The position numbers and the translations under genes were made by a program. This document shows positions 26,172-46,295 of a stretch of 64,000 bases of DNA, one piece after another. This DNA is from an uncultured Alphaproteobacteria bacterium (GTDB taxonomy: Bacteria > Pseudomonadota > Alphaproteobacteria > Rs-D84), in NCBI GenBank assembly GCA_951801825.1, contig CATOOF010000001.1:8936-72935 (forward strand). The letters are read 5' to 3'. Within the stretch, counting starts at the first letter, position 1; each line of letters begins with the position of its first letter. Under the pieces are notes generated by a model, which had not been told where the DNA came from, searched no databases, and saw nothing but the letters and a program-made list of their open reading frames with translations.

Positions 26172-26181
26172 TGGGGGGGGG
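26172..26181. repeat. homopolymeric G10 tract (intergenic, between convergent genes)
   Basis: tgggggggggg read directly; 22 nt after the stop of the 25578-26150 gene. Confidence 0.9.
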
Positions 26182-26321: not shown

Positions 26322-27560
26322 TTATTCAACCCATATGGTCGCGGTTGCAGTACCCGTGGTTCCCACCGGAATAACCCCCAGTTTTGCCACACCAATCGCA
26401 TCACGTGTTGCAGATACACCCGATACATTCACAGATGTACCACTTACCGTGGCCGATACACCATTTGAACCGCTGGCCGTATACGTTGTATTATTATCAG
26501 TTAACTCGATTGTTGCGGCGGTGGCCTGGTTCGCCGTAAAAGTACCCTTAACAGCCCCCCCCTGTTTAATAGTAAGCGTGGCGTTATTTACCGTCGGAAC
26601 ATTTATCGTTCCCTTTGTGACGGAAATTTTACCGTCTGTCTGGCTAACATTCGTAACGACATTACCCGTCGCGCTAGACTCTGCAACATCCAGTGCATTT
26701 ATCGCATTTGTAATATCACCCGGGGTCGCCGCGGTAACACCCTTTGTAACTGTAAGCGCACCGTTATTTGCCGTAATTGCCGAAACAACGTTTCCGGCAC
26801 CGGTTGTTGTCGCCGTTGTAACTGTATTTGTATCTGTTCCAGATACTGTTATAACCCCAGATGCATCCTTGGTCACAGTAACACTGCCGGAACCTTTAAT
26901 ATTACCATTACTGCCCGCGGTCAATGTATCCTGCTTGCCCGTGGCATAATTATTGTATTGGGTTACTTTGTCCGCCGTAATACCGGAATTAAGAGCGGCC
27001 TGCTGAGCAGAACTCATCGTGGTCCATGCACCATTGGGACCACCCATCTGGTAATTTGCAGTGGATTTAACCTGATACACATTCTTGGCGGCCGCAACGG
27101 CGGCATCCCCCATTGCGGCGGCAATTTCCTCTGCCACCTTTACAGAAGGAATACGCGCATCATTGTCTGTATGCAGGGTGTCATATGTATTAATCGTATC
27201 TATGTTAATCTTTGTCGGGGCAATTGCGGCAGATGCAGAAATATCCGCATTTACAATCGTGCCATCTGCTATATCCCCAGATGTCACAGAACTTTTACCC
27301 GCCAATGTACCTAATGCCGGCTTGTTCTTTATCTGTCCCATGCCGGATGTTGCGTTCCAGTCGGGCTGAACCTGTGCCGCTGGAATATCTGGCTTGTTCG
27401 TCAAATCATTATAAGAGCCAGACGTCGCCACCGGTGCCAAGTTACCTTCTGTGCCCAAACGTTTGTTTAACAGCGTGGTTGATACAACCTCTGCACGGGC
27501 CGGTATCACAGACACAATTGCGATAAAAGAAACTGCAAAAATACCAGCTATATTCCTCAT
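26322..27560 (-). CDS. Secreted surface-fibre protein with phage-tail-fibre-type repeats
   Basis: Signal peptide, then …SGSYNDLTNKPDIPAAQVQPDWNATSGMGQIKNKP… Thr/Gly/Ala-rich beta-rich body. Shares the …NDARIPSVKVAEEIA… motif with the neighbouring gene. Confidence 0.55.
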   Translation of the reverse strand: MRNIAGIFAVSFIAIVSVIPARAEVVSTTLLNKRLGTEGNLAPVATSGSYNDLTNKPDIPAAQVQPDWNATSGMGQIKNKPALGTLAGKSSVTSGDIADGTIVNADISASAAIAPTKINIDTINTYDTLHTDNDARIPSVKVAEEIAAAMGDAAVAAAKNVYQVKSTANYQMGGPNGAWTTMSSAQQAALNSGITADKVTQYNNYATGKQDTLTAGSNGNIKGSGSVTVTKDASGVITVSGTDTNTVTTATTTGAGNVVSAITANNGALTVTKGVTAATPGDITNAINALDVAESSATGNVVTNVSQTDGKISVTKGTINVPTVNNATLTIKQGGAVKGTFTANQATAATIELTDNNTTYTASGSNGVSATVSGTSVNVSGVSATRDAIGVAKLGVIPVGTTGTATATIWVE

Positions 27561-27672
27561 AACCTAAAAACTCTCTACCCGTCTTATATTATCACAAATC
27601 CCCACTTCAACACAAGGTCATATATGGCGTAACCATATCTTTTTTGAATTACGCCATATATTCCGCCCTATG

Positions 27673-28914
27673 TTAACGTCCAATCGTTTCCCAAACATAT
27701 GCGCCGTTGCGGAACAATAACGCACAGCCCGCTTCAGAAGTTTCACAATTCGTACCGGGTTTTGGAATTGCATTATTTGCCTTGGCCAGTGCGCTGTCCG
27801 CCGTATCCTGGGCATCTGACGCCGCAGTATTTGCCTGGGTGGCCGCGGCTTGCGCCGTGGTGGCCTTGCCGCCTACTTCCTTTATCGCGGCGACAACGGT
27901 TGTCGCGGTTGTTCCCATATTTGTCGCAGAAACATCTCCAACCTCTGCATCATAGGTTGCGGTTGGTAACTTAGTTCCCAGTCCAGATGTTGTGCTTTCA
28001 ATCGCCGTCTTGTTTGCATTCGCCGTTGCGGCCGCGGCCTGGACCGCCGCATCATTTGATGTTTTATATGTGTCTAAGGCCGCCGCGGCATCGGTTCCCG
28101 CCTTTTTGGCCGTAGCCACCGCCGCATCTGTCTCTGTTTTTGTATATGCGTCACCAATATTATAGCCCGCCAATGTAGTGGCTTTATCCGCCTTGCCTTC
28201 AACCGCGGTGTTTATTGCATCAACCGCAACCTTAATTTTATTATCAACACTGCCATCAACAGTATCTGCCGCATTCAAGGTTGCAATCGCATCGGTGTTT
28301 GTCTTGATTGCATCAATTTTTTCCTTTGTTGCACCAGAGACCATAACCGCACTGTTATTAATGGCAGTAATCGCGGACGTATTTTCTGCAATGTCCGCCT
28401 TTAGTTCTGTATCATCATATGTCGCGGCTGTTTTTGCATCATCAATTAACTCAACAACCGTCTTGTCTGCGGGTACGGTACCGATTGTCTTATTAATTGC
28501 ATTATCTGCCGCGGTACGCGCCGCTATCTCGTCATCAATTCTTGTGCCCAATGCGGTATCCGCAGATGTACGTGCCGCTGATTCTGCATCCATCTCTGCC
28601 TTGGTAAGACCTTTGTTACTGGCCGTCAATGGCGTAACAAAATCTTCCTTTTTTCTTGAATAGATATTTGCAGCCGCCGTTACCGCCGCATCAGCCGATG
28701 CACTGGCAATGTCTTCGGCAACTTTTACTGTTGGAATACGTTCATCATTATCAGCATTGCTGGTATTATAAGAAGACATGTTGTCAATTTTCAACGTATC
28801 CTGTTTTGTTTTGGCAATATCATCAACATACGTTGTTGATGCAATATCCGCACGTGCCGCACCAACCGCCAAAAACGCCGCCAGAGAAGCTACCAAAAAT
28901 CCTGCTCTTTTCAT
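27673..28914 (-). CDS. Secreted Ala/Thr-rich coiled-coil surface protein (paralog)
   Basis: Signal peptide MKRAGFLVASLAAFLAVGAARA, then DIASTTYVDDIA…, then …NDERIPTVKVAEDIA…; a long coiled-coil; C-terminal IPKPGTNCETSEAGCALLFRNGAYVWETIGR. Confidence 0.55.
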   Translation of the reverse strand: MKRAGFLVASLAAFLAVGAARADIASTTYVDDIAKTKQDTLKIDNMSSYNTSNADNDERIPTVKVAEDIASASADAAVTAAANIYSRKKEDFVTPLTASNKGLTKAEMDAESAARTSADTALGTRIDDEIAARTAADNAINKTIGTVPADKTVVELIDDAKTAATYDDTELKADIAENTSAITAINNSAVMVSGATKEKIDAIKTNTDAIATLNAADTVDGSVDNKIKVAVDAINTAVEGKADKATTLAGYNIGDAYTKTETDAAVATAKKAGTDAAAALDTYKTSNDAAVQAAAATANANKTAIESTTSGLGTKLPTATYDAEVGDVSATNMGTTATTVVAAIKEVGGKATTAQAAATQANTAASDAQDTADSALAKANNAIPKPGTNCETSEAGCALLFRNGAYVWETIGR

Positions 28915-29015
28915 AATATATGATACCTAAATAATTTTATCCGCTATGTGATGCGTTGCACGCATCTACTGTACCCGGCGGTCGTTTATCCAACCACCGG
29001 GATTTTTTTTATAAC

Positions 29016-29831
29016 TTAAACGCCCGGCGTCGGTGCTGGTGCTGGGTCTGCACGTTCAATTTGTTCCCATTTCAAGGTCGCAACATCGCCAAGGGTCTTG
29101 ATGGTTAAAACATATGTTCCATCTTCGCCTGTTGTCGTAACCTTTTTAATGGATTCGTTCAGCGCCTGTGTCGCATCAGCCTGGGCTTTTTCAACCGCCG
29201 TGTTCAATGCGGTATCTGCCGCTTTATACGCAGTGTCCAATGCACCAATCGCATCAGCGTTAGCTTTTTCTGCTGCTGTTGCACGGTCCGTTTCAACCTT
29301 TACCGCGTTGGCAATATCTGTTGCAACCTGTGTTTTATCCGCCTTGTCAGAAACAGCTGTATCAATAGCGTCTTTGATTGCACCCTCTTCCGCAGTAATA
29401 GAGTTTGTAATAATTGTTTTAACCTGGTCCTGTGTTACTTTGCTAGTATTCAATTCATTGATTGCCTCGGTCAGTGTTTTATTCGTTGTCCCCAGTTCGG
29501 CTGTTCCAACCGTCCCCTCCAACGCACTAATATCATCCTCGGCCGTATATAAGCGCGCATCAATATCCTTTAAATCCGCCGCCGAAGCCTTGGAATCCAA
29601 TGCCTTGGATATTTCCGATGTATCGCTGTTCAGTTCTTCTGTAATCCGATTGGTAATTGTTGTGTTAATACCGTCGCGAAATTCCGTAACAGTTGATTCC
29701 AACGTTGTGACGCTACCCTGTACTTTGCCAATTTCTTGATCAACATAGGCCCTGGATGTAACGGCCGCATTTGCATCGACTGCAACCAAGCCCAACAGAA
29801 CTGTAAAAATACCAGTTGTAAGTTTTTTCAT
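29016..29831 (-). CDS. Secreted coiled-coil surface protein (paralog)
   Basis: Signal peptide; N-terminal AAVTSRAYVDQEI motif; heptad-rich Thr/Ala/Asp body; Pro-rich C-terminus. Confidence 0.5.
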   Translation of the reverse strand: MKKLTTGIFTVLLGLVAVDANAAVTSRAYVDQEIGKVQGSVTTLESTVTEFRDGINTTITNRITEELNSDTSEISKALDSKASAADLKDIDARLYTAEDDISALEGTVGTAELGTTNKTLTEAINELNTSKVTQDQVKTIITNSITAEEGAIKDAIDTAVSDKADKTQVATDIANAVKVETDRATAAEKANADAIGALDTAYKAADTALNTAVEKAQADATQALNESIKKVTTTGEDGTYVLTIKTLGDVATLKWEQIERADPAPAPTPGV

Positions 29832-29868
29832 AATTTTTTCCTTTCCTTAAACTTTATTTATCTGAAGA

Positions 29869-30693
29869 TTAATCTGCCGGAGTAACCGTGCTTTCCAGCG
29901 GCGCCGTAACATCCAGCCACATCAGGCTATTACCGGCTGAATCGACCGACAGAACACAGCGTCCCGACTCTGCGGCACAGGACCCTGTCGGTTTCGGTAT
30001 CGCCAGGTCAATAATTTTAGCGTTTGCTTCTTCCTTTGTATAAACATCGGCTACGTTGGCCTTTTTATCCAGTTCAGTTTTTAACGTGCCAGATTCAACA
30101 GATTTATCAATTGCGTCGGTCACAACATCGCCATTGCTGACAATTGTGGTAATAATTTCTTTTACGGATTCATTTTGTTCCAATGCATTCGTAATCTTTT
30201 CCGTAACGGTTGCATTTGTTACCAAATCCGCCGCCGCCACAGTACCCGCGACATAATTACCGGTTGCATCAATTGTTGCGATATTGCCGGCCTTGATTGC
30301 TTCGCCCGTCAGCTTGTCTGCCTTGCCTGCGACATCCGTTTCCAGTTGTCCAACAGTTGTATTCAAATTATTAACAGTTGTGCTAATCTGGTTTACAGTC
30401 GATGTATCCGCCTTTGTGTCCAGTGCCTGGTCAATGGCTGTTTTCAGTTCACTGTTTTCAGACTGCAGTTCGTTTGTAATATTTGTTACGATAACATCCT
30501 GCAACTGCTCTGTTTTAGTATAATTGTTTTCAATTGTTGTCTGCAGTTCCTTAACATCTGTCGAAACCTTGTTATCAACATATTGTTTGCTTGCGATTTG
30601 AGGCGCCGCCGATGCACTGGCAATCCCAGCACTTACCATTATAGCCGCTGCAAATCCGGAAAAAGCGACATTCTTTACTTTCATTTTTTTCAC
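29869..30693 (-). CDS. Secreted coiled-coil surface protein (paralog)
   Basis: Signal peptide; …QIASKQYVDNKV… motif; DVYTK-type repeats; C-terminal …IPKPTGSCAAESGRCVLSVDSAGNSLMWLDV…. Confidence 0.5.
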   Translation of the reverse strand: MKKMKVKNVAFSGFAAAIMVSAGIASASAAPQIASKQYVDNKVSTDVKELQTTIENNYTKTEQLQDVIVTNITNELQSENSELKTAIDQALDTKADTSTVNQISTTVNNLNTTVGQLETDVAGKADKLTGEAIKAGNIATIDATGNYVAGTVAAADLVTNATVTEKITNALEQNESVKEIITTIVSNGDVVTDAIDKSVESGTLKTELDKKANVADVYTKEEANAKIIDLAIPKPTGSCAAESGRCVLSVDSAGNSLMWLDVTAPLESTVTPAD

Positions 30694-30741
30694 TTCCTTT
30701 TTTTACACTTGGCCCAAGGGCCGTTTATAATGATTTGACAG

Positions 30742-32592
30742 TTACTCTGTAACCACTTCAAACCAGCCCTTTTGACCATTGCTAATCGCCAGTACGAAAT
30801 CACCTTCTTCTGGTGCGCCTTCGACAGTAACCGCCTGGTCCGCCTTTGTCAGCGATGCCTGAACATCCGCCGCCAATTTCGTTTTTGCAATTGCCGCATC
30901 ATCTGCAACATCTGCATTTGTAATTGTGTCTTTTGCCGCCAATGTGCCCAAATCTTCTGTTTTGGCATATCCGCTTAAGTCTATATTGCCGGCCTCTACA
31001 ACCGCATCCTCAAGCGCTTTTTTAGTTGCAAACTTTTCATCAGCCGCTGATTTCGTATAAACATTTTCCGCATCAGCCTTTAACGCCAGCGACGTTGTTG
31101 CCGCATCAGCCGCCGTCTTGGCCGCATCGGCCTTATCGGATGCCGTTCCTGCCGCCGTCAATGCGGACGCCGCCACACCAGATGCCGCATCGGCCGCTGT
31201 TTTTGCGGCCCCGGCTGTTGATACCGCCAACGCCGCATCGGCAACCGCGCCGCTAACATCGACCGCCATTTCATCAACATCAGTCGCCAGTGTATTTACA
31301 CGCCCCTCCAGAGCGGTTACCGTTGCGCCTTTTGCATAATCGGCCAAATCGGTAACATTTGCCTTTTTCTCAAGCGCAGTGTTAACATCAGCCGTTTTGG
31401 CATATTCGGATAAAGCCGCACTCATGTCGCCTGCAACAATATCGGCAACTTTCTCGTCAACCTGGGTCTTTGTGTAAACATCTGCAGATTTTGCATAATC
31501 AGCCAGAGATTGGTGCTCTGTCAGATACTTTGCATCTGACTGGCCCTTTGTGTAAACATCCGAAACATTCGCCTTGTCCGCCAGCGCCGTATTAACCCAT
31601 GCCTTAGGTGCAAGATCCGCAGTTGCGTTTGTAATGCTTTCTTCTACCGCCGTTTTCGTGGCATACGCCGCCAGCTGTGTCTTGTCCGCCTTGTCAGACA
31701 ATGCATTGGCCATTTCGGTCGATGTAACATGCCCCGCATCCGCAATTGCTGTTTTAATCGCCTGATTCATTTGCTCTGTTGTGGAATACTTAGCGGAATC
31801 AAGGCCCTCGCCCGGGTCACCCTTGTCACCCTTTTCACCTTTCTCGCCCGCCGGGCCCTGGGGACCGGTTAAGCCTTGGGGCCCCTGGGGGCCGACCAGC
31901 TCACTAATTGCAATCAAATCCTGCCACTGGGTATCGCCGACATAGCGCCACTGAATATGGGTTGCATTCTTAGAAATCTCAACCTCGCGGCCATTTGCAC
32001 CAACAATGGTTTCCAGCCCGTCTTTCAGCGCATCTATATTCAGGAAAATTTCATCATCTTCTATTTCAATATAGCCATCGCCCGTCAACACATTTTGCTT
32101 GTCTGCAAAAAAACCGTCTATTTCATCATTTGTGTACAAAGCACCAACCTGGGATTCAAGTTCGCCAACACGGTCTGTCAATGCGCCGGCAATTCCTGGA
32201 TCCATGGAACCACCGCCACTGTTGCTAACGCCGCTGCCCGGTTTTTGATTTTTGATAGAACTGCCCCCACTGACAGATGTGCCGCCACCCAAATATTTGC
32301 CAATAGACAAACGTGGCGCGGTTGCAACACGGCCCGTCGTTGCCGTACCGCGATTTGAAGACCCAGACGCAGACGCCCCGCCAGCCGACGGCGCCACGCG
32401 CATTGATCCCGCGCGCACTGCGTTTATGGCCCCACTGGGGGCGCCGCCACCCGCGGCCGCAGATGATGCACTGGAATACGTTCCTGCCCCCCCTAACGAC
32501 CGCACCGACGCGGCCCCAAAAGCGCCCGATATCGCCGATGTGCACAAAACACAAACAACTGCCAATCGTGATATTTGAACTCTGTTTTTCAT
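30742..32592 (-). CDS. Secreted collagen-like-repeat surface-fibre protein (start at MKNRVQ; ORF extends to 32631)
   Basis: Signal peptide; Gly/Ser-rich linker; …IQWRYVGDTQWQDLIAISELVGPQGPQGLTGPQGPAGEKGEKGDKGDPGEG (10 GXY triplets); then about 300 aa of KADKTQL/DVYTK-type repeats. Confidence 0.6.
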   Translation of the reverse strand: MKNRVQISRLAVVCVLCTSAISGAFGAASVRSLGGAGTYSSASSAAAGGGAPSGAINAVRAGSMRVAPSAGGASASGSSNRGTATTGRVATAPRLSIGKYLGGGTSVSGGSSIKNQKPGSGVSNSGGGSMDPGIAGALTDRVGELESQVGALYTNDEIDGFFADKQNVLTGDGYIEIEDDEIFLNIDALKDGLETIVGANGREVEISKNATHIQWRYVGDTQWQDLIAISELVGPQGPQGLTGPQGPAGEKGEKGDKGDPGEGLDSAKYSTTEQMNQAIKTAIADAGHVTSTEMANALSDKADKTQLAAYATKTAVEESITNATADLAPKAWVNTALADKANVSDVYTKGQSDAKYLTEHQSLADYAKSADVYTKTQVDEKVADIVAGDMSAALSEYAKTADVNTALEKKANVTDLADYAKGATVTALEGRVNTLATDVDEMAVDVSGAVADAALAVSTAGAAKTAADAASGVAASALTAAGTASDKADAAKTAADAATTSLALKADAENVYTKSAADEKFATKKALEDAVVEAGNIDLSGYAKTEDLGTLAAKDTITNADVADDAAIAKTKLAADVQASLTKADQAVTVEGAPEEGDFVLAISNGQKGWFEVVTE

Positions 32593-32652
32593 AACTCTCT
32601 CTATACCTGTCAATGATATCAAATTACGCAAACCGCAACAACATTTTTCTGG

Positions 32653-36875: not shown

Positions 36876-36904
36876 AAAAAAGCCCCCTGTTTGGGGCTTT
36901 TTAT
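36876..36904 (+). terminator. rho-independent terminator
   Basis: AAAAAAGCCCC-CTGTTT-GGGGCTTTTT. Confidence 0.65.
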
Positions 36905-37092: not shown

Positions 37093-37839
37093 ATGGCGGC
37101 ACGACACAGATTTTATTTACTTATTGCGGGATTGGCCTCTTGCGCCATGATGAATAAAAGCCACGGAAAAGACATAGGCTACACAATCGGCGAAGTATTG
37201 TATTCCAGCCCATACTGCGCATCCCCGGCATCGGGGGATGGCGATACCCCATGCCAAGTTTGCGTCCCATCCAGAATAGCCTATGATAAATGCAACTATA
37301 GCACCAGTTGCATTGACAACTGGATAAACGACGAAAACATTTGCATTGATAACACATGCAGCAGCTACAACGGCACCAGCAACATACATTATGGGGGCGC
37401 ATACGGAAAAAATTCTGGCGGCGGATTTTATATTTGCGACGACTATAGCGGGTGGAAATATTCCGCAACCCAGCCTGACACAAATCCGGACAATTGCTCT
37501 AACCAATATGACGGCAACCACGGTCATCTTATAAATTGTTGTGATTTTGATCCGGATGCAGGCATCGGCGGTTCATGGTGCCCATCAGGATACGATCGTG
37601 AATACTGTGACAGCGGCTATTACGGCGGATTCAATAACTGCGCCCAATGCCCCAGTGGTCCAAACTATGTTACCGGCCCAATCAACGATTACTCCCCCCA
37701 GGGACCAATATCTGGAAAATCAAGCGAATCCGGAAACTATTCAAAAAACAAATGCTATATTCCGCCACTGGGCGGCTCTGAACACTACATGGACAGCACG
37801 GGCCAATATGTATTTACCAGCAACTGTTATTGGAGCTGA
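37093..37839 (+). CDS. Cysteine-rich lipoprotein, paralog family member C
   Basis: Lipobox-like LIAGLASC; module …CDSGYYGGFNNCAQCPSGPNYV…KNKCYIPPLGGSEHYMDSTGQYVFTSNC parallels members A and B. Confidence 0.55.
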   Translation: MAARHRFYLLIAGLASCAMMNKSHGKDIGYTIGEVLYSSPYCASPASGDGDTPCQVCVPSRIAYDKCNYSTSCIDNWINDENICIDNTCSSYNGTSNIHYGGAYGKNSGGGFYICDDYSGWKYSATQPDTNPDNCSNQYDGNHGHLINCCDFDPDAGIGGSWCPSGYDREYCDSGYYGGFNNCAQCPSGPNYVTGPINDYSPQGPISGKSSESGNYSKNKCYIPPLGGSEHYMDSTGQYVFTSNCYWS

Positions 37840-37939: not shown

Positions 37940-38897
37940 ATGCAAACACAAAACACACCTGATCTGCTGTCATACATCTCGGAATTTTATCGCACGACGG
38001 ACACAAAACTGAACCATATCATACAATCAATAGAGACACTAAAAAAACACGTCACACGCCTTTATGCGCTGCGAACGGACATATCCGACATACCACCGGC
38101 ATCGGGCCATCTACTGTTAAAACAACAGGGATGCCTGAAACTGTTATCAATGATTGACCGGGTGTTAAAAGATGCCGGCATTGAATACTTTCTGGGATAC
38201 GGAACACTGTTGGGTGCGGCCCGCGGCGGCGGATTCATACCATGGGACGACGATATTGACATATGCCTGATGCGTGCAGATTTTGACCGCGCCGTGGACG
38301 TATTAACCCGGCATTTTAATCATGACCTGTTTTCAACCCGCTGGGGGCTAAGTGGCGGAATATTCAAAGTACTGTTCACAAAAAAAAATCTGTGTAGACC
38401 TGTTTCCATGGGATACATATCATACCCGAATGGAAACGGAAGACCAGCGCACAGAATTTGTAAACACATATATTCACGCAATGGATACCGCCCGCCAGAT
38501 GGAGGCAGACCAGCGCATGCTGGCCGAAAATCCCGGGGCGATTGTATCATCCACGCACCAAAATTATTGCCAGATTCGCGACGATATAATCATGAACGAC
38601 ATCGCCCCTGATTACGAGCATGGCGACATATTTGAAGGCATTGACTGGCAGACATTCCCGGAACGCATCGGCAGATTTTTCCATGCCAACCCGTTTCATC
38701 ATGAATGGATTTTCCCGCTGGGCCAGATAGAATTCTGTGGCCACATGTTCCCGGCCCCAAATAATGTAGACGCTGTTCTGACAACACGCTTCGGCGACTG
38801 GGGGACACTGCGTCCCGATTTTGCCCGCCACAACGGCAATCCGTTTTCTTATCAAGAACTGGAATCTGTTCGCAAATTTATCGGTACCGAACAATGA
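37940..38897 (+). CDS. licD: LicD-family phosphotransferase, split over two frames at an A9 tract
   Basis: Frame 1 (from 37940) carries …GTLLGAARGGGFIPWDDDIDICLMR… (LicD DxD motif). Frame 2 (from 38352) carries …KKICVDLFPWD… and the C-terminal half. The frames switch within aaaaaaaaa at 38380-38388. Confidence 0.65.
38380..38388 (+). repeat. homopolymeric A9 tract inside licD (frameshift site)
   Basis: cacaaaaaaaaatc read directly. Confidence 0.9.
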
Positions 38898-39280
38898 AGC
38901 GCGTCATAACATACGGAACATTCGACACTTTTCATTGGGGCCATATGGAATTGTTGCGCCGTGCCCGCGAAATGGGCGACTGGCTGGCGGTGGGATTGTC
39001 AACGGACGAATTCAACGCGATAAAGGGAAAGAAATCGCACCTGCCATATTCCCGACGCCTGGAAATATTACAGGCAATAAAATATGTCGACCTGGTATTT
39101 CCTGAAAACAACTGGGGGCAAAAGCGCGACGATATATTAAAATACAACATTGATACATTTGTAATGGGCGACGACTGGCGCGGCCGTTTTGACAATCTGG
39201 CCGACGTATGTAATGTGGTATACCTGGCACGGACAGCCAACATCAGCAGCACACTGATAAAACACTCGTTACAAAAGTAA
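38894..39280 (+). CDS. tagD: Glycerol-3-phosphate cytidylyltransferase (TagD-like)
   Basis: 128 aa, MKRVITYGTFDTFHWGHMELLRRA… is near-colinear with Bacillus TagD (MKKVITYGTFDLLHWGH…); ATGA overlap with licD. Confidence 0.8.
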   Translation: MKRVITYGTFDTFHWGHMELLRRAREMGDWLAVGLSTDEFNAIKGKKSHLPYSRRLEILQAIKYVDLVFPENNWGQKRDDILKYNIDTFVMGDDWRGRFDNLADVCNVVYLARTANISSTLIKHSLQK

Positions 39281-45327: not shown

Positions 45328-46295
45328 TTATTGCCCGCCGTCATTCTCTTTTTTCAAAAGCCTTGCATATTTATCCATTGAATTGTCGTATACGTCGTTA
45401 GTATCAAACTTATCAAAATCGGCGCGCGTGTATCGAACATAGCCACTCCCCCAGAATGCATCGCCCTTTGTATGTTTTTCCTGGGAATCCTGCCATGACT
45501 TGCATCGATAGTGATTTATACGGATTATATCCTGCGACAGGCCGGGGATAACATTGCTGGGGGTGACGGCGTGGCCGCGCTCGTCAACACTGCGCCAGAT
45601 TACGTCGAAAACGTGTGGCGACCGACACCCAACGACCATGCGCGGATTTACGATTATTTTGTTTGCCTCACCCGAATTATCCCGTTGACGATACTTATAG
45701 TTTTCAATAACCAACCCTGCGGGCCGCGTCACATGCCCCGCCGACCCATACAGGCACCACCTAATAAAAATCTGGGCCGTACGCTGTGGAATACGGCGCA
45801 GAAAATCTGGAATCGTACAATCTTTCACCGGCATTATAAACTCGTCCAAATCAATGACCGCCAGCCAACGCGCCTCGGCCGCGGCGCGACGAACAGCGGC
45901 ATAGTTTACCCGGTTTTGAACCCCCTCACCCCGGACATAATGATACTCGACCACCCCGGCGTCGATATAAGGTTTTAAAATCTCAAAGGTGTTGTCGGTT
46001 GACTCGTTGTCAAATATATAAAATTTTTCAACCCCGACCAGTCGATGATAATCTATCCATTCTTTAAAATAACGACCTTCGTTTCGCGCTACCGCGCTAA
46101 CTGTCAGAAAATACTTATTTTTACCCCCCCCCCCGCAACTATTGTCCGAGCGGCGGAAAATATGCCGAATTTTATTATATTGCGCACACGATTACGGATC
46201 ATGCGACATGGCACAATACCAGATACCATACCGGCGACAAATTTACGTCCCTTGGATATCTTTTTCTCGTTATGTGTTATGTCAATTTTAATCAT
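45328..46295 (-). CDS. Glycosyltransferase (GT2/GT92-like), split over two frames at a poly-G tract
   Basis: Frame A (GTG at 45954 and open upstream to 46191) encodes …KNKYFLTVSAVARNEGRYFKEWIDYHRLVGVEKFYIFDNESTDNTFEILKPYIDAG…IDLDEF… (GT-A fold, DxD). The only ATG-initiated N-terminus (46295) is in frame +1 and terminates 18 nt after the G11 tract. Confidence 0.65.
46124..46134 (-). repeat. homopolymeric G11 (C11 on + strand) tract in the 5' end of the glycosyltransferase gene
   Basis: ttacccccccccccgcaa read directly. Confidence 0.9.

What the first reader, a model, noticed from the sequence alone, without database searches (positions are those of the whole stretch)
37940..39280. licD-tagD operon with an A9 frameshift tract: phase-variable glycerol-phosphate (or phospho-alcohol) decoration of a surface glycan
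A LicD-family phosphotransferase (DxD motif GFIPWDDDIDIC) is split across two frames exactly at aaaaaaaaa (38380-38388). The C-terminal half (KKICVDLFPWD…) continues in the +1 frame.

It overlaps by ATGA with a 128-aa protein that is near-colinear with Bacillus TagD (glycerol-3-phosphate cytidylyltransferase, the CDP-glycerol maker). By established enzymology, LicD-family enzymes (LicD, FKTN/FKRP) transfer phospho-alcohols from CDP-donors. A TagD + LicD pair therefore predicts glycerol-phosphate substitution of LPS or capsule in a diderm.

The homopolymer suggests ON/OFF switching, or alternatively a sequencing indel.
Basis: partly seen in the sequence, partly recalled or inferred. Interest (0 to 1): 0.7.

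Follow-up and report, generated by a model that had tools for sequence, protein, structure and literature searches.

The report
Frameshifted licD next to tagD
An uncultured gut alphaproteobacterium carries an ordinary two-gene kit for adding glycerol-phosphate to a surface molecule; in this assembly one extra A in a run of eight breaks the transferase gene, and nothing shows this to be a dedicated on/off switch.

Summary
The sequence facts hold. An A9 run at 38380-38388 splits a LicD-family gene, and its stop overlaps (ATGA) the start of a 128-aa TagD-like gene. The repair rule given was wrong. A8 or A11 restores the 318-aa ORF; A10 and A7 do not.

The repaired protein is a full LicD (Pfam 91 bits, pLDDT 89.5, best fold match FKRP). 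The downstream protein is colinear with solved TarD/TagD (E 1e-52 and 1e-49).

Thirteen independent assemblies of the same species all carry A8 and an intact gene. One of them is identical to the window over 60.1 kb except for this single A. No other tract of 8 or more A/T/C, nor the G9 tract, differs among assemblies; only the C tract at 46124-46134 varies.

The window allele is therefore a +1 slip of a normal A8 tract. It is probably real, because a product that only A9 can encode exists in another assembly, but a consensus error is not excluded. Evidence for a dedicated contingency locus is weak: A8/A9 lies below usual poly-A/T cut-offs, and the allele is seen in the window and at most one further assembly.

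A poly-G tract in a GT92 glycosyltransferase 7 kb away (lengths 7, 10, 11) is the better phase-variation candidate. LicD enzymes using CDP-glycerol are already known, including in diderms.

The parts
36877..36902 (.). Bidirectional terminator-like hairpin after plsC; likely upstream boundary of the cassette's transcription unit
   Evidence: 10-pair stem with 5 GC pairs and T-runs on both strands. This is a consensus match only, and the number of terminator-like sites found equals the number expected from shuffles.
37093..37839 (+). 248-aa Cys-rich secreted protein with an N-terminal signal peptide and no Pfam family. It is the conserved upstream neighbour of licD.
   Evidence: no Pfam hit; a Cys-rich ORF (13-29 Cys) sits directly upstream of licD in 8 of 9 orthologous loci. 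In most of them (window, L011, L012, L014, L016, L108; more loosely L110) it shares the C-terminal pattern C-x-GYY...C-x-x-CP...CY-I/V-P...TG-x-Y-x-F...CY. L013 fits poorly and L015 lacks the C-terminal end; the family is small and fast-evolving.
37940..38379 (+). licD N-terminal part in the native frame (residues 1-147, including the DDD-x-D metal motif at residues 103-107)
38380..38388 (+). A9 homopolymer, the frameshift site. It is A8 in 13 other assemblies of the species.
   Evidence: In the AlphaFold model it encodes the T-K-K loop between strands 142-146 and 150-159.
38389..38897 (+). licD C-terminal part, in the +1 frame relative to the N-terminal part in this assembly (ICVDLFPWD... to the stop codon)
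38609..38611 (+). Premature stop of the A9 allele. The product is 223 aa: 147 native residues, two in-tract lysines that match the intact protein, then a 74-residue out-of-frame tail.
38894..39280 (+). tagD/tarD-like glycerol-3-phosphate cytidylyltransferase, 128 aa. Its start overlaps the licD stop (ATGA), and there is no strong Shine-Dalgarno sequence upstream.
   Evidence: TIGR01518 163.5 bits against a 165.4 cut-off; 2b7l E 8e-52 and 1coz E 7e-49, colinear over residues 1-126; sequence at the overlap.

Best explanation
The locus is a conserved cassette of three genes: a Cys-rich secreted protein, LicD and TagD. TagD makes CDP-glycerol from CTP and glycerol-3-phosphate. The cytoplasmic LicD-family transferase then moves glycerol-phosphate from CDP-glycerol onto an acceptor that has not been identified. 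The acceptor is most likely a lipid-linked glycan or glycolipid destined for the cell surface. In the normal allele the gene holds an A8 tract (ACA AAA AAA ATC, Thr-Lys-Lys-Ile) in a loop of the catalytic fold. In this assembly a +1 slip to A9 shifts the frame after residue 149 (the first out-of-frame residue is 150). The product is a 223-aa protein that lacks the C-terminal half of the enzyme. The shift also uncouples ribosomes from the ATGA-overlapped tagD start about 285 nt downstream, so the decoration is probably off or strongly reduced. This is best read as a sporadic, genuine slippage mutation at a modestly mutable tract, specific to one strain or sample. It is reversible in principle, and RNA-polymerase slippage on A9 could make it leaky. 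It is not a tract evolved for high-frequency switching. Shown here: the gene identities, the frameshift, A8 as the population norm, and conservation of the cassette. Inferred: the donor and the chemistry, the loss of function and the polar effect on tagD, and that the extra A is real.
For: Gene identities. The repaired LicD has pLDDT 89.5, and its best fold match is FKRP at E 6.5e-10. A8 restores the ORF. A8 is present in 13 independent assemblies. The window is identical to GCA_948743385.1 over 377-60481 with 0 mismatches and one gap, which is this A. The source assembly is therefore not generally prone to homopolymer errors. The 12 other A/T tracts of 8, the two C8 tracts and the G9 tract agree in every assembly that covers them. 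The 181-aa C-terminal ORF product, which can only arise from A9, exists in a separate Logan assembly (P0123). The 155-aa fragment is on an NCBI contig of 479,530 bp. An independent 1-bp deletion elsewhere in licD (window 38305/6) occurs in another sample (L091). Loss-of-function alleles of this gene therefore do circulate. LicD enzymes use CDP-polyols: A. pleuropneumoniae CpsC with CDP-glycerol (PMC11666461), and glycerol-phosphate or ribitol-phosphate transfer in lactococci and enterococci (PMC8327497). The adjacent donor gene switches between TagD and an IspD-type gene, followed in L015 by an SDR gene (L015 by Pfam, L016 and L108 by sequence), across orthologous loci.
Against: No reads are available, so a consensus error at the longest A/T run in the window cannot be excluded. 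The A9 allele is seen only in the window and in one other assembly, which may derive from the same sample. That contig could not be retrieved. The acceptor, the actual donor specificity and the off phenotype are untested. TagD scores 1.9 bits below the TIGR01518 equivalog cut-off.
Confidence: 0.55

Rival explanations
1. Sequencing or assembly artefact. The organism really has A8 and an intact licD, and the extra A is a consensus error at a homopolymer.
For: The A tract is the only difference from GCA_948743385.1 in 60.1 kb. It sits in the longest A/T run of the window, where indel errors are most likely. All 13 other assemblies have A8.
Against: No other homopolymer in the window deviates: 12 A/T tracts of 8, two C8, G9 and C11 all match the near-identical assembly. 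An exact 181-aa product that only A9 can encode is recorded from a separate Logan assembly made with a different assembler. Real loss-of-function alleles of licD exist elsewhere (L091).
Confidence: 0.22
2. True contingency locus. The A tract is a selected, hypermutable switch giving frequent reversible on/off expression of the glycerol-phosphate decoration.
For: The change occurred on a background with 0 SNPs in 60 kb, so the tract mutates faster than the region accumulates base substitutions. The A8 tract is kept in the sister species L011 although flanking codons carry synonymous changes, and L013 has A7 at the same site. It is the only mid-gene A/T tract of 8 or more in 53.8 kb of coding sequence. 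A nearby glycosyltransferase has a clearly length-variable poly-G tract, so homopolymer-driven surface variation exists in this organism. Phase-variable lic loci are known in Haemophilus and proposed in Campylobacter (PMC539331).
Against: Thirteen of 13 other assemblies are A8, whereas the poly-G tract shows three lengths among five other assemblies. A8/A9 is below the poly-A/T cut-off of 10 or more used for phasome prediction (PMC6321876). Most orthologues encode T-N-K or other residues at the site and have no tract. Four other genes carry invariant A8 tracts. The second loss-of-function allele (L091) is not at the tract.
Confidence: 0.18
3. Programmed recoding. The A9 arrangement is the designed state, and full-length LicD is made by transcriptional slippage or +1 ribosomal frameshifting on the A run.
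For: Runs of 9 A or T are slippage-prone for bacterial RNA polymerases and are used for gene expression in some genes (PMC1088944). Some rescue of the A9 allele by transcripts one A shorter is plausible.
Against: The out-of-frame arrangement is not conserved. Every other assembly of the species and every orthologue examined is in frame.
Confidence: 0.03

Closest known systems
A. pleuropneumoniae CpsC, a LicD-family (PF04991) glycerol-phosphate transferase/polymerase using CDP-glycerol in a Gram-negative capsule pathway (PMC11666461)
   Same: It belongs to the same Pfam family and uses the CDP-polyol donor logic. It is also from a diderm host and acts in the cytoplasm on a lipid-linked acceptor.
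   Different: [quoted passage not shown] Here there are no capsule genes nearby. The cassette is small, consisting of a Cys-rich protein, LicD and TagD, set among housekeeping genes. Whether one or many glycerol-phosphate units are added is unknown. Sequence similarity to CpsC was not measured here.
LicD-family enzymes in Lactococcus cwps types A/B (with TagD1-like cytidylyltransferase, glycerol-phosphate) and E. faecalis epa (ribitol-phosphate) (PMC8327497)
   Same: LicD is paired with a TagD-type gene or a CDP-ribitol synthase gene, and the polyol-phosphate serves as a decoration on a surface glycan.
   Different: Those are monoderm cell-wall polysaccharide loci with many glycosyltransferases, Wzx and Wzy. 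This organism is an alphaproteobacterial diderm and has none of those genes adjacent.
FKRP/fukutin (mammalian LicD-like ribitol-phosphate transferases; PDB 6kaj and 6kal)
   Same: FKRP is the best structural and PDB-sequence match to the repaired protein, spanning the frameshift junction. It has the same DxD NTase fold and uses a CDP-polyol donor.
   Different: Identity is 18%. FKRP is a eukaryotic Golgi enzyme with an extra stem domain, and its acceptor is the O-mannosyl glycan of alpha-dystroglycan.
B. subtilis TagD / S. aureus TarD (glycerol-3-phosphate cytidylyltransferase; PDB 1coz and 2b7l)
   Same: The proteins are colinear over 126 of 128 residues at E 1e-49 to 1e-52. The HxGH motif is present (HWGH), and the RTEGISTT motif is recognisable as RTANISST.
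   Different: The hosts of TagD/TarD are monoderms making teichoic acid. The window protein scores 163.5 bits against the TIGR01518 cut-off of 165.4.
Phase-variable lic1 locus of Haemophilus influenzae (CAAT repeats in licA) and the poly-G tract in C. upsaliensis licA (PMC539331)
   Same: An intragenic repeat in a lic-type surface-decoration pathway can shift the reading frame.
   Different: Those repeats are long, hypervariable between isolates, and lie in the kinase gene licA. Here a short A8/A9 tract lies in licD and is invariant in 13 of 13 other assemblies. The decoration is a polyol-phosphate, not phosphocholine.

Membership tests
LicD family (PF04991) CDP-alcohol phosphotransferase | Match to the family HMM above the gathering score over the whole domain | tested here: met
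   The A8-repaired ORF scores 91.4 bits against a 22.6 cut-off, covering model positions 2-227 of 227 and residues 77-285 across the tract.
LicD family (PF04991) CDP-alcohol phosphotransferase | Acidic DxD metal-binding motif in an NTase fold | tested here: met
   D103, D104, D105 and D107 are invariant in 41 homologues. The AlphaFold model has pLDDT 89.5, and its best PDB match is FKRP at E 6.5e-10 over about 240 columns. phmmer against 6kaj gives E 7e-8.
LicD family (PF04991) CDP-alcohol phosphotransferase | Uninterrupted reading frame encoding both halves of the domain in this genome | tested here: not met
   A9 shifts the frame after residue 149 and gives a 223-aa product. The frame is intact in 13 other assemblies.
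LicD family (PF04991) CDP-alcohol phosphotransferase | Transfer of a phospho-alcohol from a CDP-activated donor | not testable with these tools
   This is inferred from the adjacent TagD gene and from its swap to an IspD-type gene (plus an SDR gene in L015) in orthologous loci.
Glycerol-3-phosphate cytidylyltransferase (TagD/TarD, TIGR01518) | Score at or above the equivalog cut-off | tested here: inconclusive
   163.5 bits against a 165.4 cut-off, 1.9 bits short, aligned over 1-124 of 125 model positions.
Glycerol-3-phosphate cytidylyltransferase (TagD/TarD, TIGR01518) | Colinearity with solved TagD/TarD, including the HxGH and RTxGISTT nucleotide-binding motifs | tested here: met
   2b7l at E 8.4e-52 and 1coz at E 7.2e-49 over residues 1-126. 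HWGH is present; the second motif reads RTANISST where TagD has RTEGISTT.
Glycerol-3-phosphate cytidylyltransferase (TagD/TarD, TIGR01518) | Specificity for glycerol-3-phosphate rather than another phospho-alcohol | not testable with these tools
   The next-best PDB hits, ethanolamine-phosphate and choline-phosphate cytidylyltransferases, are far weaker at E 1e-17 and 3e-5.
SSR-mediated phase-variable (contingency) locus | Intragenic repeat whose length changes switch the reading frame | tested here: met
   A8 and A11 are in frame; A7, A9 and A10 are out of frame.
SSR-mediated phase-variable (contingency) locus | Tract length in the range shown to be hypermutable | tested here: not met
   The in-frame tract is A8 and the out-of-frame tract is A9. 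The PhasomeIt cut-off is poly-A/T of 10 or more, against poly-G/C of 7 or more (PMC6321876). Twelve other A/T tracts of 8 in the window are invariant.
SSR-mediated phase-variable (contingency) locus | Tract-length polymorphism among closely related genomes | tested here: inconclusive
   The window has A9 and 13 other assemblies have A8. One further A9 assembly is inferred from an A9-only product. For contrast, the GT92 poly-G tract has lengths 7, 7, 10, 11, 11 and 11.
SSR-mediated phase-variable (contingency) locus | High-frequency reversible switching and within-population heterogeneity | not testable with these tools
   No reads or cultures are available.
Programmed transcriptional slippage / recoding site | Out-of-frame arrangement conserved among orthologues | tested here: not met
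   All conspecific assemblies and all orthologues examined are in frame.

The most novel reading that the evidence does not exclude
licD-tagD may be the enzymatic half of a previously undescribed, conserved three-gene cassette in an uncultured, mostly gut-derived alphaproteobacterial lineage. The cassette would consist of a rapidly evolving Cys-rich secreted protein, a LicD transferase and an interchangeable CDP-polyol synthase (TagD for glycerol, or IspD plus SDR for ribitol). Under this reading the Cys-rich protein, or the glycan it carries or binds, is the target or partner of polyol-phosphate decoration. Homopolymer slippage (the A tract in licD, the poly-G tract in the nearby GT92 gene) would give this commensal a small phasome for varying its surface.
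Probability: 0.2. Interest if true: 0.55.

Novelty: new member of a known kind. Interest (0 to 1): 0.25.

Why it matters
As it stands, this is a routine annotation point. The window holds a frameshifted allele of a normal licD, and the gene should be annotated as disrupted at a homopolymer rather than as two ORFs. The glycerol-phosphate pathway (TagD plus a LicD-family transferase) is already documented in both monoderms and diderms.

Two things add modest value:
- The cassette gives a first hint about surface chemistry in a MAG-only gut alphaproteobacterial lineage. Polyol-phosphate decoration appears linked to a fast-evolving Cys-rich secreted protein, with glycerol and ribitol donor genes swapping between lineages.
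- The neighbouring GT92 poly-G tract shows that homopolymer-length variation in surface-glycan genes does occur in this organism. A read-level phasome survey in gut metagenomes would therefore be worthwhile.

Tried and rejected
- **JGI metagenome scans.** Two scans for the tract with its flanks returned nothing, although JGI contigs L004 and L006 contain an exact match. The scans are uninformative, not negative evidence.
- **The second A9 contig.** The contig carrying the A9-specific 181-aa product could not be retrieved. Whether it comes from an independent sample is unknown.
- **An apparent third licD disruption.** The 208-aa gene in L002/L098 is caused by a 100-N scaffold gap with duplicated ends, so it is an artefact and was rejected.
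- **A failed look-up.** A look-up of a TTG-start ORF failed, probably because the start codon was translated literally.
- **The Cys-rich protein.** It has no Pfam family even at E = 1, and few homologues were found. No structure prediction was attempted because the permitted alignment would be too shallow.
- **Horizontally acquired island.** GC content across the cassette is typical of the flanks, and L011 and L012 share the plsC...tolB context. This reading was rejected.
- **Promoter and terminator scans.** They found no more sites than shuffled sequence gives.
- **A split but functional two-piece LicD.** Rejected. The tract lies between two core beta-strands, and no orthologue is split.

Full report
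**Observation**

The window has nine A's at 38380-38388. This is the longest A/T homopolymer in the 64 kb.

- ORF 37940-38611 encodes 223 aa. It contains GFIPWDDDIDIC and reads ...FKVLFTKK before running out of frame.
- ORF 38352-38897 carries KKICVDLFPWD... in the +1 frame.
- The licD stop overlaps the start of a 128-aa ORF (38894-39280) as ATGA.

The frame arithmetic was not. A8 gives one 318-aa ORF and A11 gives 319 aa, while A7, A9 and A10 are all truncated. The suggested checks (+1 A, -2 A, "A10 uniformly") therefore target the wrong lengths.

**What the genes are**

LicD:
- The A8-repaired product matches Pfam LicD end to end: 91.4 bits against a 22.6 cut-off, model positions 2-227 of 227.
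- It aligns to FKRP across the junction (6kaj, E 7e-8).
- It aligns without gaps at the junction to 41 full-length homologues. D103, D104, D105 and D107 are invariant in these.
- With that alignment AlphaFold gives pLDDT 89.5 and pTM 0.84. The tract encodes the T-K-K loop between strands 142-146 and 150-159.
- The best PDB fold match is FKRP, a CDP-ribitol-dependent ribitol-phosphate transferase (E 6.5e-10, about 240 columns).
- There is no signal peptide or transmembrane segment, so the enzyme is cytoplasmic or peripheral. This is my reading of the sequence.

TagD:
- The 128-aa protein is colinear with S. aureus TarD (2b7l, E 8e-52) and B. subtilis TagD (1coz, E 7e-49). It has HWGH and RTANISST motifs.
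- It scores 163.5 bits on TIGR01518, 1.9 bits under the equivalog cut-off.
- Ethanolamine-phosphate and choline-phosphate cytidylyltransferases match far more weakly.

**Is the frameshift typical of the organism?**

It is not. Exact look-up of the TagD protein and of three other window proteins retrieved conspecific contigs from 13 independent assemblies. These are four NCBI MAGs, two JGI metagenomes and seven Logan runs. All of them carry A8 and an in-frame licD.

Four overlapping stretches of GCA_948743385.1 (contig CAPYVX010000001.1, 591 kb) cover window 377-60481. Across that span there are 0 mismatches and exactly one gap, which is this A.

Twelve other A/T tracts of 8, two C8 tracts and a G9 tract have the same length in every assembly that covers them. 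The window's assembly is therefore not generally prone to homopolymer errors. The licD tract is also not notably polymorphic in the population.

**Is the extra A real?**

Three points favour a real variant.
- The exact 181-aa product MAEYSKYCSQKKICVDL... is recorded from a Logan assembly (P0123, a 7.2-kb contig). Only an A9 tract can encode it. With A8 that frame stops after ...KKSV.
- The 155-aa C-terminal fragment is recorded on an NCBI contig of 479,530 bp, without the 136-aa N-terminal product that goes with the L091 allele. This fits an A9 allele there, and that contig is probably the window's source. This is inference.
- L091 (SRR22526877) has A8 but carries a separate 1-bp deletion at window 38305/6, which splits licD into 136 and 155 aa. 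Null alleles of this gene therefore do occur.

Two points stand against it.
- I could not retrieve the second A9 contig, so the two A9 records may share one sample.
- The error-prone position coincides with the longest A run in the window.

An apparent third disruption (L002/L098) is a 100-N scaffold gap and was discarded.

**Is it a contingency locus?**

The evidence is weak.
- The in-frame tract is A8. Phasome surveys use cut-offs of 10 or more for poly-A/T and 7 or more for poly-G/C, and note that even these include poorly mutable tracts (PMC6321876).
- Most orthologues read T-N-K-I or otherwise lack a run. Only the sister species L011 (A8) and L013 (A7) have one.
- Lys codon usage is AAA 281 to AAG 224, so AAA-AAA pairs are unremarkable.
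- A/T tracts of 8 or more are depleted in coding sequence: 5 in 53.8 kb coding against 8 in 6.3 kb non-coding. Four other genes nevertheless carry invariant A8 tracts, although licD's is the only mid-gene one.

For contrast, the C11 tract at 46124-46134 (poly-G on the coding strand) lies at the 5' end of a GT92 glycosyltransferase. It has lengths 7, 7, 10, 11 and 11 in five other assemblies. One of these is a contig with 0 mismatches to the window over 13.7 kb that differs only by C10 against C11. Those lengths change the called gene between 208, 268 and 269 aa. That tract behaves like a phase-variable repeat; the licD tract does not.

Programmed recoding is excluded as a design, because the out-of-frame state is not conserved. 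Adventitious rescue remains possible, since 9A runs are slippage-prone for RNA polymerase (PMC1088944).

**Mechanism**

TagD supplies CDP-glycerol. LicD transfers glycerol-phosphate to a cytoplasmic-face acceptor.

- LicD-family enzymes using CDP-glycerol are documented in a diderm: CpsC of A. pleuropneumoniae (PMC11666461).
- The family is also associated with glycerol-phosphate and ribitol-phosphate decoration in lactococci and enterococci (PMC8327497).
- Context supports the donor logic. In nine orthologous loci (LicD at 45% identity or more), the gene after licD is TagD-like in six (L011-L014, L110, L112). In three it is IspD-type (L015, L016, L108), followed in L015 by an SDR gene, an arrangement I take to encode a Bcs1-like CDP-ribitol synthase (own knowledge). 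L015 was confirmed by Pfam: IspD 126.8 bits and Epimerase 153.8 bits. L016 and L108 were assigned by sequence inspection.
- With A9, the product lacks the C-terminal half of the fold. Termination at 38609-38611 removes translational coupling to tagD, which has no evident Shine-Dalgarno sequence. Both steps are probably down; this is inferred.

**Beyond the finding**

In eight of those nine loci, and in the window, licD is directly preceded by a Cys-rich secreted protein of 197-325 aa with 13-29 Cys. Most of these share a C-terminal Cys/Gly/Tyr pattern. This holds across different genomic contexts.

The family has no Pfam model and is small and fast-evolving. It shows 66% identity between sister species, where the neighbouring genes show 80-98%. 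Only 11 representative clusters in 1.8 billion reach E of 1e-3 or better. A functional link to the polyol-phosphate decoration is plausible but untested.

**Verdict**

This is a real, ordinary licD-tagD polyol-phosphate cassette. The window carries a +1 A allele of an A8 tract, and it is probably genuine. Phase variation is not demonstrated here, and population data make it unlikely as a dedicated switch. I classify it as a new member of a known kind, of low to moderate interest.

Noticed in passing
window 46124-46134 (C11; poly-G on the minus strand), gene about 45328-46295 minus strand: The poly-G tract lies at the 5' end of a GT92-family glycosyltransferase. Its length is 11 in the window and two other assemblies, 10 in a contig otherwise identical over 13.7 kb, and 7 in two more divergent strains. 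G6/9/12 would give a 320-322-aa ORF from an ATG. G7/10 give 268/269 aa from a TTG. G8/11 leave 63-aa and 208-aa fragments. This is a much better phase-variation candidate than the licD A tract.
   Followed up: partly
window 37093-37839 (+); L011-L016, L108 and L110 upstream of licD: A fast-evolving Cys-rich secreted protein with no Pfam family sits directly upstream of licD in 8 of 9 orthologous loci, regardless of genomic context. The only exception is L112, where the upstream gene is HlyIII. L012 and L014 also have a second small Cys-rich ORF downstream of tagD.
   Followed up: partly
L015 6921-8641, L016 6921-8638, L108 4912-5139: In three orthologous loci the TagD gene is replaced by an IspD-family cytidylyltransferase. 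In L015 (Pfam-confirmed) an SDR/epimerase-family gene follows it, and L016 has a 340-aa ORF with a near-identical N-terminus at the same position. This implies a swap from a CDP-glycerol to a CDP-ribitol-type donor for the same LicD clade.
   Followed up: partly
L091 4316-4317 (window 38305/38306): An independent 1-bp deletion (TTAAC to TTAC) in licD occurs in a Logan assembly of SRR22526877. It splits the gene into 136 and 155 aa while the A tract stays A8.
   Followed up: yes
L002 5235-5334 (same contig as L098; window about 38227-38281): A 100-N scaffold gap with 55 bp duplicated on either side lies inside licD in GCA_949072245.1. Divergence from the window differs on the two sides (99.85% against 98.99%). 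This looks like a chimeric join of two strains and mimics a truncated gene.
   Followed up: yes
window 26322-32631, minus strand: A row of five secreted proteins of 412, 413, 271, 274 and 629 aa as ORFs (the last two gene-called as 271 and 616 aa) has no Pfam family on record in the precomputed gene-call annotation. They include two weakly paralogous pairs, and three of them (413, 271 and 274 aa) share an S-x-x-Y-V-D motif just after the signal peptide. This may be a surface-protein cluster next to OMP beta-barrel and OmpA genes.
   Followed up: no
window 26173-26181: A G9 tract lies between two convergent genes. Its length is invariant in five assemblies, so it is probably structural (for example part of a terminator) rather than variable.
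   Followed up: partly
window 377-60481: The window is base-for-base identical to GCA_948743385.1 contig CAPYVX010000001.1 apart from the single A. Either the same clone was sampled twice, or two assemblies derive from closely related samples.
   Followed up: partly
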